Shown: positions 42,001 through 48,000 of the stretch, piece after piece
Layout: each line of letters starts with the position of its first letter
How positions within the stretch are numbered: the stretch's first letter is position 1
NCBI RefSeq assembly: GCF_024298765.1
Contig: NZ_CP101210.1
Origin: Escherichia coli
GTDB taxonomy: Bacteria > Pseudomonadota > Gammaproteobacteria > Enterobacterales > Enterobacteriaceae
DNA: 64,000 bases
Reading direction: 5' to 3' (one strand)
Program-made: the position numbers

Positions 42001-45000
42001 GGTCTGTGGCATTTTCGGAATTGACCTCCGCCAGCGCGTTTTCCGGCTCAGCAACGGCAGGTTTATGGAAGAGCCGTGCATCTGGTTCAGCGGATTCTGC
42101 AGCCAGGGGGACGGAGCCTGTTTTGAAGGGCGCTGGCACTGGCAGCCAGCGACACCCCGGAAAATCAGGGAATATGCCCCTCAGGACCGTGAGCTTCATC
42201 GTATCGCGGATGCCCTGCAGGCGGTACAGAAGCGTAACTTCTGGCAGTTACAGGCTGAAATCAGTCACCGGGGACGTTACTGCCATCCGTACAGCATGGA
42301 TATCACCGTCACCCGGAACAGTCCGACTGGTCAGGCACTGACAGCCGATGCGGAAGCCGCTGTCAGCGAAGCCCTGCGCGACCTGGCCTTCTGGCTGTAC
42401 CGCCAGCTGGAAAACGAGTACGACTGGCTGACCTCAGACGCCGCTGTAGATGAGGCCATTCACATCAATGCATATACCTTCACCGAAGCCGGTCTCCACG
42501 CCGGCTGACCTGTCATCGTTAAACTATCATTCACCGATTTTCTGTGAGGACTTTATCGTGTCAGACACGCTCCATGAAACAAATTATCCCGACGACAACA
42601 ACGACCGCCCCTGGTGGGGGCTACCCTGCACCGTGACGCCCTGTTTCGGGGCACGTCTGGTGCAGGAGGGCAATCAGTTGCATTACCTTGCCGACCGCGC
42701 CGGTATCAGAGGGCAGTTCAGCGACGCGGATGCATACCATCTGGACCAGGCTTTTCCACTGCTGATGAAACAACTGGAACTCATGCTCACCATCGGTGAA
42801 CTGAATCCCCGCCATCAGCATACCGTCACGCTGTATGCCAGAGGGCTGACCTGCGAAGCCGACACCCTCGGCAGCTGTGGTTACGTTTATATGGCTGTTT
42901 ATCCGACACTGGCACCCGCAACCACCTCATAACCCCGAATATCTCACCTTTAGCACTACCAGTTACAGAGAACTTAAGATGAAAACATTACCTGACACAC
43001 ACGTACGGGAGGCATCGCGCTGCCCGTCTCCCGTCACCATCTGGCAGACACTGCTCACCCGACTGTTGGACCAGCATTACGGCCTCACACTGAATGACAC
43101 ACCGTTCGCTGATGAACGTGTGATTGAGCAGCATATTGAGGCAGGCATTTCACTGTGCGATGCGGTGAACTTTCTCGTTGAAAAATACGCACTGGTACGT
43201 ACCGACCAGCCAGGATTCAGCGCTTGTACCCGTTCTCAGTTAATAAACAGTATTGATATCCTCCGGGCCCGCCGGGCAACCGGCCTGATGACCCGCAGCA
43301 ACTACAGAATGGTGAACGACATCATCCGGGGTGAACATTCGGAGGCGAAACGATGAAACTGACTCTGACGCTCGAAGCAGACAGCGTTAACGTGCAGGCA
43401 CTGAACATGGGGCGAATTGTCGTTGACGTCGATGGTATTGACCCCGCTGAGTTGAATAATAAGGTCGCTGAAAACGGTTATTCACTCCGCGTGGTGGATG
43501 CTCCCGAACAGCAGACAACCGACTCTCCACCACCGTTTACTGCCCTTACCGACATACGTTCGTTGCAGTACCGCACATATCACGGAAAAGGACAACGCCT
43601 GGCTGTACTCACTGTCACATCAGACGAATGACTTCGGCGAATCAGAATGGATTCATTTTACAGGTACCGGTTATCTGTTACGTACTGATGCGTGGTCGTA
43701 TCCGGTTCTGCGGCTTAAACGTCTTGGCCTGTCAAAAACGTTCCGTCGTCTGGTTGTCACTCTCATCCGGTGTTATGGCGTCGGTCTCATTCATCTGGCT
43801 GCCAGTGCAGGATGTCTGCCGGGCCTGCCCACTTTCGACTGGTAACTAGGAACGACATGACATCATTAATCACGGAAACGGCGCTGGAAATTCTGATTGC
43901 CTAAATAGCTGCGCTTAATACCGCTACACTTTTGCCAGCCCATGTTTGCCTCCGGGGAATGGGCTAACGGTTTCCATAAAATGGCGAACTTTTTTCAACA
44001 GTTGCCACATTGAGCGGCACTGATGATTACGCGTTATTGTGTCGTGAAGTGCCTGCCATAGCCGTTCAACATGATTCACCCATGGCGAGTAAACCGGCTG
44101 ATAAATGACCCTGAACTTCGGGTTCTCCTTCAGCCAGCTCTGTGTTTCCCGGCTTTTGTGGATAATGTAGTTGTCCACGATCAGCGTGATGGTTTTCGCC
44201 CGACGGTATGTCGCTTTAAGCCGTTTCAGCAGGCTGATGAACAGCGCCGAACTTTTGCTGTTGCCGCCCACATAGCTGGCTTTACCTGTCCCGGCGTGAC
44301 CACCCGTTTTTGCTGTCCGCGCAGTTGCCAGTCCGCACCGATTTTGGGATTAAGATGGATATCCACTTCATCTTCATAAAAGACCGGATGCTCTGCGCAG
44401 CATTCGTCCAGTGCTTTATGGATTGCTGCCATCTTTTCATCTTTATGCGGGTCACGGATACGCAGAGTTGGCGCAGCCCTTCGCCACACAATCCCCGCAG
44501 ACGGCAACCAGCGGCGAACGGTTCCGGCATTTAACTGGCAACCGGTTATCTCATTGATTTTTATTGCCAGCAGTTCTGTACTCCAGCGTGAACGCTGGTA
44601 GCCAAAGTCGCCGGGAGAATGTTTTACCAGCTCACGTAACAGTGTGCAGATATGCTCAAACGGCCAGCGACGGGCACGCCCGGCAGGTAATGATTTCAGT
44701 CCCTCAACACCCGACTGCGTGAACCAGTTAATCCAGCGTCCAACAGAGGAACGGGCGCAGCAGAGCGTTCTGGCAACGTCGCTGACACGGTCGCCCCGGT
44801 GCAGCATCAGCATGGCAGTCAGTCTGCGGGCATAATTTTTATCGTGTGTTTTATGGATGGCTTTCTGCATCAGGCGTCGTTCGTCACGGGAAATTGGTGC
44901 TATGATCGGCATTGCTCAGTCCGGTTGGTGATTTGTTTTGATTTGGCGATTGATCAGATCGCACAATCCGGGCTGAGTTCCCTCAAAGTGATCTACTATT

Positions 45001-48000
45001 CCGCGCAGCTATTTAGCTGCAGAACAATAGTAAGCGTCAACGGAGCACCGTATTGACGCTTATTTATTGGTGAGAACTACGTTCCATGGCAGGAGTTCGT
45101 CAACACGGTTGGAGGGCCATTCCGGCAGTACGCTCAGAATATGGCGCAGATACGCTTCCGGATCGATACCGTTCAGACGGCAGGTGCCGATCAGCCCGTA
45201 CAGCAGTGCTCCACGCTCGCCGCCGTGATCGCTACCGAAGAACACGTAATTTTTCTTTCCGAGACAGACTGCACGAAGCGCTCTTTCCGCTGTGTTATTG
45301 TCCGCTTCTGCCAAACCATCATCACTGTAATAACAGAGGGCGTCCCACTGATTCAGTACATAGCTGAACGCTTCGCCCAGTCTGGATTTTTTCGACAGCG
45401 TGCCATTCTTCTCCACCATCCATTCATGCAGCGACGTCAGTAACGCTTTGCTTCGCTGCTGCCTGACTGCAAGACGCTCTGACTCTGGTAATCCCCGTAT
45501 TTCATCCTCGATGGCGTACAGTTCACTGATTCGCTTCAGGGCTTCTTCTGCCATCGCACTTTTGCTGCTGATGTATACATCGTGGATTTTTCTCCGGGCA
45601 TGAGCACAGCACGCAACTTCTGTCAGCGCACCACCTTCGCGTTCTGCACTGAACAGCCTGTCGTAACCTGTGAACGCATCCGCCTGCAGGATACCCCGGA
45701 AGGGGCGGAGGTGTTGCTCCGGGTGTTTCCCCTGCCTGTTCGGTGAGTACGCGAACCAGACCGCCGGAGGAGATGACGAACCCGCATTGCGATCATCCCG
45801 GACATACGTCCAGATGCGCCCTGTTTTCGTCTTTTTCAGGCCCGGTGCCAGTACCTTTACCGGTGTGTCGTCAGTGTGAAGCTTGCGGGTATTCATCACA
45901 TAACGATACAGGGCATCATTCAGCGGCGTCATTAACTGGCAGCACGCGTCAACCCAGTTGGAGAGTAATGCACGGCTCAGTTCGACACCCTGTCGGGCAA
46001 AGATTTCACTCTGACGATACAGTGGCAGGTGTTCGCAGTATTTTCCCGTAAACACGCGGGCAAGTAATCCGGGGCCCGCGATACCACGCTCTATCGCGGC
46101 GGGACGGCGCCGGTGCTTCAACGATGCAGTCACATTTTGTACAGGCTTTTTTTACCCGTTCTGTGCGGATCACTTTCAGAGCGCTGCTCACCAGTTCCAG
46201 TTGTTCTGCACTGACTTCCCCCAGATAATCCAGCTCACCGCCACACTCCGGGCAACAGCTTTCTTCAGACTCCAGACGGTGTATTTCACGGGGAAGGTGT
46301 GCCGGGAACGGACGACGATGGCGCGACTGCCGCAACTGGCGGGGAACCTGTGGATCGTCTTCCCGCCCACTGTAACGATCGCTGTCCTGTTCGCGTTGTT
46401 TCAGCAGGGCCTCAGCCTGTTCAACTTCACGACGCAGTTTTTCAGAACAGGTACCGAACAGCATCCGGCGCAGTTTTTCTATCTGAGCCCGCAGATGTTC
46501 TATTTCCCGTTCATCTTCTTCGATCTTTTCTTCGGCACGTGCCAGTGCAGAGCGCAGGAAGGTCTTCGTCTCTTCAACCAGACTCAGTTGCTGGTCTTTC
46601 TGACGGAGCTGGCTTTCCAGTTCTGCAATGCGAATGAGGTATTTCTGACTCATGGCCGTTTTTATAATGCGGCCAGGCATTTTTTACAACATTGTCAGTG
46701 AGTTAAGGCGGAATGTTTTTGGCTGACGCCAGTCCAGCTTATCGAGGAGCATTGCCAGTTGCGAGCGGGTAATGGATACCTTACCGTCACGCACCGCAGG
46801 CCAGATAAACTGGCCTTCCTCCAGGCGTTTGGTGAACAGGCACAGACCATCAGCATCGGCCCAGAGTATTTTAACAGTGTCACCCCGTCGGCCACGAAAG
46901 ATAAACAGGTGACCTGAGAAGGGGGTCTCATCCAGCACATGTTGTACCTGTTCTCCCAGACCGTTGAAGGATTTACGCATATCGGTAACGCCGGCCACGA
47001 GCCAGATGCGGGTACCTGATGGGAGTGAGATCATCTTCCCCTCCCGGTCAGTTCACGGATCAACACCGTGAGCAGCTCTGGTGAAGGATTTCCCAGTGTC
47101 ATTTTACCGTAATGGAATAGTTGGAGGCATTCTACGAGAAATACGTCCTTCTCTTTGCCAGAGACGTAGCCATTTAAAAATCAGGTTGTTATCAACGCCA
47201 TGTTCCCGGGCCAGTTGTGCAACATTGGCATTTGGTTTCGAAGCCAGTTCAACCATATGAAGCTTAAATTCATTAGAAAATATCCGGCGCGTCCCAGAGC
47301 GCCAGTCTGTAGGTTTATCCATCAATAGAACTCCGTCTAATTTAGAAGGAGCTCTAATTTAGTCTGCAAGGATCAGGAGTTACAGACGGCATTGGCTTTA
47401 CGCTTACGAACAATATCGACTGCGAATCGGGAATTATCTTTGACAACGATGAGGATAAAACAGATTCGGCAGTACTGTTTCCCTGGATTGAACGTGCATG
47501 TCAGGACGTTCGCGAGCTGTGTCAGTTTCAACGTCTGCAAAAGACCCGTACAGATTAACTCCCTGTCCGTACTCATTACACACATACACGTGCCAGCCCC
47601 CACCGGCTGGCGCTTTGCTTTGTATAAAGGAAATAAATAATGTCAGAACCTACTCTCACCAACCCCGAAGTATTAACCGATCATACCGATGTGATTTGCT
47701 CCACCAGTATTGAACGCATCGTCACCGGACGTAATGCGGCGCTGACACAGATTGAAGCATTGCTCCACCAGATTAACGATATTTCGACACAAACCCTCAG
47801 TATCGGCGGAAAAACCGCCCTGGACTGGGTCATGAAACAGGATTTTCGCTGTGGTTGCTGGCTTATGGAGAAGCCTGAAACAGCGATGAAAGCCATTACC
47901 CGCAATCTCGATCGCGGTAAATGGCGGGATTTAATGAAACGCTCAGGGATGCTGTCGATTATGGACGCTCAGGCCCGTAACCAGTGGTACAACAGCCTAG

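What the first reader, a model, noticed from the sequence alone, without database searches (positions are those of the whole stretch)
43899..47407. Adjacent IS630 and IS66-family insertions, both with frameshifted transposase genes
The IS630 transposase is split (44226-44912 and 43924-44271). The IS66 tnpC is split (46006-46680 and 45060-46133) and tnpA is truncated. The two elements lie within about 15 bp of each other and interrupt the terminal genes of the CP4-like module, so they are probably immobile and mark ongoing island decay. The frameshifts could also be sequencing errors in homopolymers.
Basis: seen in the sequence. Interest (0 to 1): 0.3.

Follow-up and report, generated by a model that had tools for sequence, protein, structure and literature searches.

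The report
Two dead insertion sequences side by side
Two ordinary jumping-gene copies (an IS630 and an IS66-family element) sit 14 bases apart inside an already broken small gene at the end of an E. coli genomic island; small deletions and a one-base insertion have destroyed their transposase genes, and NCBI's RefSeq annotation pipeline (PGAP) already marks them as pseudogenes in reference genomes such as CFT073.

Summary
It is routine and already annotated.

**IS630 copy:** It lies at 43904-45013 on the minus strand, with TA duplications on both sides. It is 99.2% identical to intact 1153-bp IS630. It lacks 43 bp between two 8-bp direct repeats (CGGGACAG). The loss removes 14 codons plus one base of the catalytic core.

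**IS66-family copy:** It lies at 45030-47407 on the minus strand, with an 8-bp duplication, GAACAATA.
- tnpA has a 143-bp internal deletion.
- tnpB is intact.
- tnpC has a one-base G insertion at 46097 and a W349C change.

**Insertion site:** Both elements interrupt one gene, a DUF957 homologue. Removing both elements and one copy of each duplication recreates exactly the sequence found at the same aspV locus in two other E. coli genomes. That empty site already carries TGG>TAG, which makes the CTAG target that IS630 prefers.

**Distribution:** The IS630|IS66 junction occurs in 189 of 5,426 complete E. coli genomes, including CFT073 and Nissle 1917. PGAP marks all three transposase genes "frameshifted".

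**Rejected readings:** Sequencing error is excluded, and none of the lesions is a change in the length of a homopolymer run. Programmed frameshifting is not supported.

Interest is low.

The parts
43904..45013 (-). IS630 copy with an internal 43-bp deletion (1110 bp; intact IS630 is 1153 bp)
   Evidence: It is 99.2% identical to an IS630 copy on plasmid pINV that PGAP annotates as intact (L003; 343-aa transposase WP_004989531.1), apart from one 43-bp gap.
43902..43903 (.). TA target duplication, left of IS630 (its partner is at 45014-45015)
   Evidence: the empty site reads GCC-TA-GCTGCAG, with a single TA.
45014..45015 (.). TA target duplication, right of IS630
44226..44912 (-). IS630 transposase 5' ORF (228 aa): helix-turn-helix DNA-binding domains and the first catalytic Asp, then 19 out-of-frame residues
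   Evidence: NCBIfam NF033545 positions 1-179. Pfam HTH_23, HTH_32, HTH_29 and HTH_33.
43924..44271 (-). IS630 transposase 3' ORF (-1 frame): second Asp and the Glu of the DD35E triad
   Evidence: NCBIfam NF033545 positions 204-298. Pfam DDE_3. Frame relation.
44286..44293 (-). Deletion junction: the single surviving copy of the 8-bp direct repeat CGGGACAG that flanked the lost 43 bp (codons 207-221 of the intact gene)
   Evidence: Alignment A1 and coordinates.
45016..45021 (.). 6-bp stretch of original DUF957 sequence (GCTGCA) left between the two insertions
45022..45029 (.). 8-bp target duplication GAACAATA of the IS66-family element (its partner is at 47408-47415)
   Evidence: the sequence occurs once in the empty site.
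45030..47407 (-). IS66-family element (2378 bp), a mosaic. The first ~290 bp are 97.6% identical to ISEc43. The remainder is 94.6-99.5% identical to an unnamed intact IS66 element in strain M25631H.
   Evidence: GTAAGCG inverted repeats (I20).
47104..47322 (-). tnpA remnant (72 aa to a premature stop). A 143-bp internal deletion has its junction at about 47116-47119, with 3-bp ATT microhomology.
   Evidence: Alignment A2, and PGAP 'frameshifted'.
46684..47034 (-). tnpB, intact (116 aa)
   Evidence: NCBIfam IS66_TnpB at 119.9 bits. PGAP protein WP_000624707.1. It differs from the reference at 4 residues.
45060..46653 (-). tnpC pseudogene, split by one inserted base. Once repaired it gives 530 aa with 17 substitutions against the closest intact TnpC, including W349C.
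   Evidence: Pfam LZ_Tnp_IS66 and zf-IS66 upstream of the lesion, DDE_Tnp_IS66 downstream.
46097..46097 (-). Inserted G (CGCC[G]CGAT) at codon 186 of tnpC
   Evidence: The allele is present only in the three loci that contain the aspV copy (two source genomes, strain 64.1 and CFT073). All six other IS66 relatives examined have the intact allele.
47408..47415 (.). Second copy of the 8-bp duplication GAACAATA
43858..43903 (+). 5' end of the interrupted DUF957 pseudogene (MTSLITETALEILIA, then TAG)
   Evidence: The gene is 79% identical to an intact DUF957 protein.
47416..47558 (+). 3' part of the interrupted DUF957 pseudogene. RefSeq annotates 47364-47558 as a chimeric CDS that starts inside the IS66 end.

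Best explanation
These are two independent, old transposition events into one small gene at the tRNA-Asp (aspV) end of an E. coli genomic island. Each element then decayed where it sat.

**IS630:** It inserted at the TA of a CTAG. That CTAG existed only because the DUF957 gene had already mutated from TGG (Trp16) to TAG. Later a 43-bp segment between two 8-bp direct repeats was lost, probably by replication slippage. The loss removed 14 residues between the first and second catalytic Asp and put the rest of the gene out of frame.

**IS66-family element:** It inserted 6 bp away and made an 8-bp duplication. It then lost 143 bp of tnpA. It gained one G in tnpC, which separates the zinc-finger part from the DDE part. 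It also accumulated missense changes.

**Consequence:** Neither copy can make its own transposase. Both pairs of ends are intact, so movement would need a transposase supplied in trans.

**Shown:** element boundaries, target duplications, the lesions, the empty site, and the distribution across genomes.

**Inferred:** the slippage mechanism, loss of activity, and the view that the empty sites are ancestral.
For: - **IS630 identity:** it is 99.2% identical to an intact 1153-bp copy, with a single 43-bp gap bounded by CGGGACAG repeats.
- **IS66 lesions:** they were located against two intact relatives.
- **Domain content:** it matches the families.
- **Inverted repeats and duplications:** both are present.
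- **Empty site:** the predicted sequence TTGCCTAGCTGCAGAACAATATCGAC is found exactly at the same aspV locus in strains 23CRST035 and A39. PGAP annotates the gene there with an 'internal stop'. An intact DUF957 paralogue has TGG at that codon.
- **Distribution:** the IS630|IS66 junction occurs in 189 of 5,426 complete genomes.
- **Sequence identity across genomes:** the IS630 copy with both flanks is 100% identical in at least the 25 listed genomes, including CFT073, Nissle 1917, ABU 83972 and ATCC 25922.
- **Annotation:** PGAP flags all three genes 'frameshifted', not 'programmed frameshift'.
- **The +G allele:** it is confined to the aspV copy.
- **Published biology:** the IS630 family carries a single transposase gene and duplicates TA (PMC2170065). 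That paper's reference list gives Tenzen & Ohtsubo 1991 for the CTAG preference.
Against: - No genome has only one of the two elements. The order of insertion and the timing of the lesions relative to insertion are therefore unknown. One or both copies could have arrived already defective, mobilised in trans.
- Loss of activity is inferred from sequence and was not tested.
- A weak A-AAA-G motif lies in the right frame in the IS630 ORF overlap. A low level of a fused, internally deleted protein cannot be strictly excluded.
Confidence: 0.93

Rival explanations
1. The apparent frameshifts are sequencing or assembly errors, for example homopolymer miscounts, and the real genes are intact.
For: Nothing was found beyond the general prior that single-base indels can be sequencing errors. 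An A7 run does exist in tnpC, but it has the same length in the intact relatives.
Against: - Two lesions are deletions of 43 and 143 bp. The third is a G inserted into CGCCCGAT, which interrupts a CCC run rather than lengthening one.
- The IS630 copy with both flanks is 100% identical in at least 25 independently sequenced genomes.
- The junction occurs in 189 genomes.
- The +G allele is present in both strain 64.1 and CFT073.
- PGAP reports the same frameshifts in CFT073 and strain 64.1.
Confidence: 0.01
2. The split ORFs are expressed as fused, active transposases by programmed ribosomal frameshifting or transcriptional slippage, as happens in some IS630-, IS1-, IS3- and IS5-family elements.
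For: - A review states that frameshifting is used by some IS630-family members (PMC5009743).
- The IS630 copy needs a -1 shift, and an A-AAA-G motif lies in the ORF overlap at 44256.
- An A7 run lies at the start of the tnpC overlap.
Against: - Intact IS630, 99.2% identical, encodes one continuous 343-aa ORF. The two-ORF layout here is created by a 43-bp deletion that also removes 14 core residues.
- No X-XXY-YYZ heptamer lies in the IS630 ORF overlap.
- tnpC needs a +1 shift, which a -1 slippery site cannot give. Its closest relatives have a single ORF and lack the inserted G.
- tnpA is also broken.
- PGAP uses the label 'programmed frameshift' for other IS elements in these same records, but not for these genes.
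Confidence: 0.02
3. The surviving open pieces are retained because they act in trans, for example as repressors or helpers for related elements. The pieces are the IS630 N-terminal helix-turn-helix protein, the IS66 TnpB, and the TnpC zinc-finger fragment.
For: - The 228-aa IS630 ORF keeps all the helix-turn-helix domains.
- tnpB is intact.
- N-terminal DNA-binding products act as regulators in other IS families (PMC5009743).
- Genomes with this locus carry other IS66-family copies, for example 9 places in strain 64.1.
Against: - There is no signal of selection. The copies are essentially identical across carriers, so conservation is uninformative.
- Against the reference, the IS630 coding changes are 4 synonymous and 3 non-synonymous.
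- A 351-bp gene can stay open by chance.
- Most carriers have only this one IS630-like copy to regulate: places per genome have a median of 1.
Confidence: 0.04

Closest known systems
IS630 (Shigella sonnei type element; IS630/Tc1/mariner superfamily)
   Same: It is 99.2% identical in nucleotide sequence over the whole element. It has the same inverted repeats, the same TA duplication at a CTAG, and the same DD35E residues and helix-turn-helix N-terminus.
   Different: It is 1110 bp instead of 1153 bp. The 43-bp internal deletion removes codons 207-221 and shifts the frame. There are also 3 missense changes.
IS66-family elements of E. coli: ISEc43, ISEc47, ISEc23, and the unnamed intact element of strain M25631H
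   Same: It has the tnpA-tnpB-tnpC layout, GTAAGCG termini and an 8-bp duplication. From position 290 onward it is 94-96.6% identical to the O157 (FRIK2533), M25631H, ISEc47 and ISEc23 types. Its left ~290 bp are 97.6% identical to ISEc43.
   Different: It is a mosaic of two subtypes. It is 2378 bp against about 2.5 kb, has the 143-bp tnpA deletion and the +1 G in tnpC, and carries W349C in the conserved C-W-A-H stretch.
The same locus in E. coli CFT073, Nissle 1917, ABU 83972 and strain 64.1 (aspV island), as annotated in RefSeq
   Same: The IS630 copy, the IS66 copy, the junctions and the lesions are identical. All are annotated as frameshifted pseudogenes.
   Different: CFT073 and Nissle additionally carry a 1446-bp ISEc45 (IS110 family) inside tnpC, at the position equivalent to window 45248. 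The window and strain 64.1 lack it.

Membership tests
IS630 family (IS630 itself) | Single DDE (DD35E) transposase with N-terminal helix-turn-helix domains | tested here: met
   NCBIfam transpos_IS630 hits both halves above the cut-off (127.1 and 101.6 bits against 100). Pfam HTH_* and DDE_3 also hit. D, D and E are identifiable with 35 residues between the second D and E. However, the gene is split and lacks 14 codons.
IS630 family (IS630 itself) | Terminal inverted repeats | tested here: met
   Arms 43901-43920 / 44997-45016 are 90% complementary (I1) and identical to those of intact IS630.
IS630 family (IS630 itself) | TA target duplication, with a preference for CTAG | tested here: met
   TA lies on both sides. 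The empty site has a single TA within CTAG. The family rule comes from PMC2170065.
IS630 family (IS630 itself) | Near-identity to the type element (isoform level) | tested here: met
   99.2% identity to a copy that PGAP names 'IS630-like element IS630 family transposase'. ISfinder itself was not available.
IS66 family | Three genes, tnpA-tnpB-tnpC, with a DDE-type TnpC | tested here: met
   NCBIfam IS66_access_TnpA (partial), IS66_TnpB and transpos_IS66 all hit. Pfam LZ_Tnp_IS66, zf-IS66, DDE_Tnp_IS66 and DDE_Tnp_IS66_C also hit. tnpA and tnpC are pseudogenes.
IS66 family | Inverted repeats beginning GTAAGCG, and an 8-bp direct target repeat | tested here: met
   GTAAGCGT is at both ends (I20) and shared with ISEc43 and the M25631H element. 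GAACAATA is duplicated, and single in the empty site. That these features define the family rests on my own knowledge of the IS66 literature, which was not retrieved here (one search found nothing).
IS66 family | Conserved C-W-A-H-x-R-R stretch in TnpC | tested here: not met
   The window reads ACCAHARR. The M25631H reference TnpC has W at the aligned position 349, where the window has C (TGG against TGT). This is a decay mutation in a pseudogene and does not argue against homology.
Programmed-frameshift transposase genes | The two-ORF layout is shared by intact relatives, with a slippery site in the overlap in the direction needed | tested here: not met
   Intact relatives have single ORFs. 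The IS630 overlap has no X-XXY-YYZ heptamer. tnpC needs +1. PGAP labels them 'frameshifted'.
Autonomous (active) insertion sequence | Encodes a complete transposase and transposes | not testable with these tools
   The sequence predicts no complete transposase for either element. Transposition itself would need an experiment.

The most novel reading that the evidence does not exclude
The most novel reading that the evidence leaves open has two parts. First, the locus may record a causal chain in which a nonsense mutation (TGG>TAG) in DUF957 created the CTAG that attracted IS630. Second, the surviving open fragments (the IS630 helix-turn-helix protein and the IS66 TnpB) may be kept as trans-acting modulators of related elements. 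The first part fits but is a single anecdote. The second part has no positive evidence.
Probability: 0.04. Interest if true: 0.25.

Novelty: already known. Interest (0 to 1): 0.07.

Why it matters
It matters little beyond correct annotation.

- **Annotation:** The locus is a clean example of nested insertion-sequence decay at the aspV island of uropathogenic and probiotic E. coli (CFT073, Nissle 1917). It has exact boundaries, target duplications and a verified empty site.
- **Curation:** Two points help curators. The IS630 'frameshift' is really a 43-bp deletion. RefSeq's 64-aa 'DUF957 domain-containing protein' at this locus is a chimeric ORF that begins inside the IS66 end.
- **Lineage marker:** The fixed double insertion, and the presence or absence of the later ISEc45 insertion, could serve as a lineage marker.

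Tried and rejected
- **Sequencing error:** rejected.
- **Programmed frameshift or transcriptional slippage:** I scanned both ORF overlaps. The IS630 copy needs -1 and has only a weak A-AAA-G, and the reading frame at that motif results only from the 43-bp deletion. tnpC needs +1. Its A7 run is shared with intact relatives and could not restore a native protein.
- **Order of insertion:** I searched for IS630-only and IS66-only intermediates with chimeric junction queries. None was found among 5,426 genomes, so the order is undetermined.
- **Composite transposon:** I considered whether the pair arrived as one unit. Each element has its own target duplication, and the empty site is restored only by removing both separately. 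This was rejected.
- **Other copies in the window:** none.
- **Non-coding RNAs:** the Rfam scan of 41000-50000 found only tRNA-Asp.
- **Pfam on the repaired DUF957 protein:** no hit at E<=0.001. Family assignment therefore rests on 79% identity to a protein PGAP annotates as DUF957.
- **Literature:** searches for IS66 family features and for ISEc45 target choice found nothing usable.
- **Not attempted:** whether deleted IS630 copies exist at other loci, which would indicate mobilisation in trans. The search tool lists only one place per record.
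Full report
**Setting**

The window is E. coli chromosome around dnaQ (48827-49567, minus strand) and tRNA-Asp aspV (48618-48694, minus strand). A genomic island extends to lower coordinates.
- Positions 16851-48835 are 99.9% identical to strain 64.1. The region of the finding is 99.9-100% identical to CFT073.
- In those RefSeq records the gene order, read outward from the tRNA, is:
  - DUF4942 (pseudogene, internal stop)
  - DUF957
  - the IS66-family tnpA (pseudogene), tnpB and tnpC (pseudogene)
  - the IS630 transposase (pseudogene)
  - DUF5983 (pseudogene, frameshifted)
  - CbtA toxin, YeeU antitoxin, DUF987, RadC and an antirestriction protein

The IS630 copy occupies 43904-45013 on the minus strand.
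- Its terminal inverted repeats were found by the repeat tool (I1).
- TA lies on each side.
- Its two ORFs match the first 179 and the last 95 positions of the NCBIfam IS630 transposase model. They also match Pfam helix-turn-helix and DDE_3 domains.

The IS66-family copy occupies 45030-47407 on the minus strand.
- It has GTAAGCG termini (I20).
- It has an 8-bp direct repeat, GAACAATA, at 45022-45029 and 47408-47415.
- It matches the TnpA, TnpB and TnpC models.

Only 14 bp separate the two elements, and 8 of those are the IS66 duplication. Neither element is repeated elsewhere in the window.

**What the lesions are**

I aligned the IS630 copy with an intact 1153-bp IS630 on plasmid pINV, which encodes a single 343-aa transposase.
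- Identity is 99.2%, with one 43-bp gap.
- The missing segment lay between two copies of CGGGACAG, and one copy survives at 44286-44293. This is the usual signature of slippage between short direct repeats, which is my inference.
- The deletion removes codons 207-221 (NEKYYLAGALHSGT...), which lie between the first catalytic Asp (EDEVD) and the second (IVDNY). It puts the second Asp and the Glu, spaced DD35E, into the -1 frame.
- Even a fused product would therefore lack part of the catalytic core.

I aligned the IS66 copy with intact ISEc43 and with an intact unnamed element from strain M25631H. Three lesions appear:
- a 143-bp deletion inside tnpA, with its junction near 47116-47119;
- a single inserted G at 46097 (CGCC[G]CGAT) at codon 186 of tnpC, between the zinc-finger region and the DDE domain;
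- 17 amino-acid substitutions against the closest intact TnpC, including W349C in the conserved CWAH stretch.

tnpB is intact. The element is a mosaic: its left ~290 bp match ISEc43 at 97.6%, and the rest matches the M25631H type at 94.6-99.5%. The +G allele was found only in the three loci that contain this aspV copy, and all six other IS66 relatives I fetched carry the intact allele.

**Not sequencing error**

- The IS630 copy with both flanks is 100% identical in at least the 25 listed genomes. These include CFT073, Nissle 1917, ABU 83972 and ATCC 25922.
- The IS630|IS66 junction is present in 189 of 5,426 complete genomes.
- PGAP independently calls the three genes frameshifted.
- None of the lesions changes the length of a homopolymer run.

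**Not programmed frameshifting**

Some IS630-family members do use recoding (PMC5009743), so I checked.
- The intact type element has one ORF, so the split here is created by the deletion.
- The IS630 overlap has no X-XXY-YYZ heptamer, only an A-AAA-G.
- tnpC would need a +1 shift.

**The insertion site**

Removing both elements and one copy of each duplication gives ...ATTGCCTAGCTGCAGAACAATATCGAC....
- That exact sequence occurs at the same aspV locus in strains 23CRST035 and A39. The small gene there is annotated as a pseudogene with an internal stop.
- The restored ORF is 79% identical to an intact DUF957 protein that has TGG (Trp16) where this lineage has TAG.
- Both elements therefore interrupt a single gene that was already dead.
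- The nonsense mutation also created the CTAG, and IS630 is reported to prefer the TA within CTAG (Tenzen & Ohtsubo 1991, as listed in PMC2170065).
- No genome carries only one of the two elements, so the order of arrival is unknown.

**Mechanism and status**

- Each element arrived by its own transposition event, as shown by the separate target duplications. Each was then inactivated by small deletions or an insertion, and the pair was inherited as a fixed block.
- Both pairs of ends are intact. 'Immobile' therefore means non-autonomous, and mobilisation by a related transposase in trans is not excluded.
- Decay has continued in some lineages. CFT073 and Nissle carry a 1446-bp ISEc45 inside tnpC at the position equivalent to window 45248.

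**Verdict**

This is an accurate observation of an ordinary feature that is already annotated. Interest is low.

Noticed in passing
Window ~45248 (target site only). L002 5183-6629, L012 ~2190, L013 ~2623, L014 2149-3595: ISEc45 (IS110 family) is inserted at the same point of tnpC (CGGAAAGAAAAATT|ACGTGTTCTTCGG, encoding LGKKNYVFFGS). This holds for the CFT073/Nissle aspV copy and for three other IS66-type elements (ISEc23, ISEc43 and an unnamed one) at unrelated loci. The left junction was checked in all four; the right junction only in CFT073 and L014. It looks like sequence-specific targeting of one insertion sequence by another. The window itself lacks ISEc45.
   Followed up: partly
Window 47364-47558 (+): RefSeq's 64-aa 'DUF957 domain-containing protein' WP_001313570.1 at this locus is a chimeric ORF. 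Its first ~15 codons are IS66 left-end DNA and it has a non-ATG start. The true gene start is 3.5 kb away at 43858.
   Followed up: yes
Window 43900-43905 / 45014-45017; L008 and L009 ~2950: The CTAG that IS630 used exists only because DUF957 codon 16 had mutated from TGG to TAG. The empty-site genomes carry the same stop codon.
   Followed up: yes
Window 43353-43845 and 47640-48497: The genes on both sides are also broken. DUF5983 is split into N- and C-terminal ORFs (frameshift), and DUF4942 is split by an internal stop. The same lesions are present in the two genomes without the insertion sequences.
   Followed up: partly
Window 45030-45190 (IS66 right end); E. coli K-12 and BL21 next to yoeF: K-12 and BL21 keep a 142-159-bp remnant, 99.3-99.4% identical to this IS66 right end, beside yoeF. 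From memory, that is the CP4-44 end of the K-12 chromosome. A similar IS66 insertion may therefore once have sat at the end of another CP4-like element.
   Followed up: no
Nissle 1917 records, equivalent to window 45016-45170: Nissle 1917 and its derivatives have about 112 extra base pairs in this short stretch relative to the window and CFT073.
   Followed up: no
L014 3595-3615: At the right ISEc45 junction in strain FDAARGOS_1267, the flanking tnpC sequence shows a tandem TACATGTTC TACATGTTC.
   Followed up: no
Window 15521-16852: Collinearity with strain 64.1 breaks at about 16851. The next 1.3 kb matches an IS3-family transposase region of that genome at only 95.5%, which suggests a different insertion-sequence copy or a rearrangement there.
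   Followed up: no
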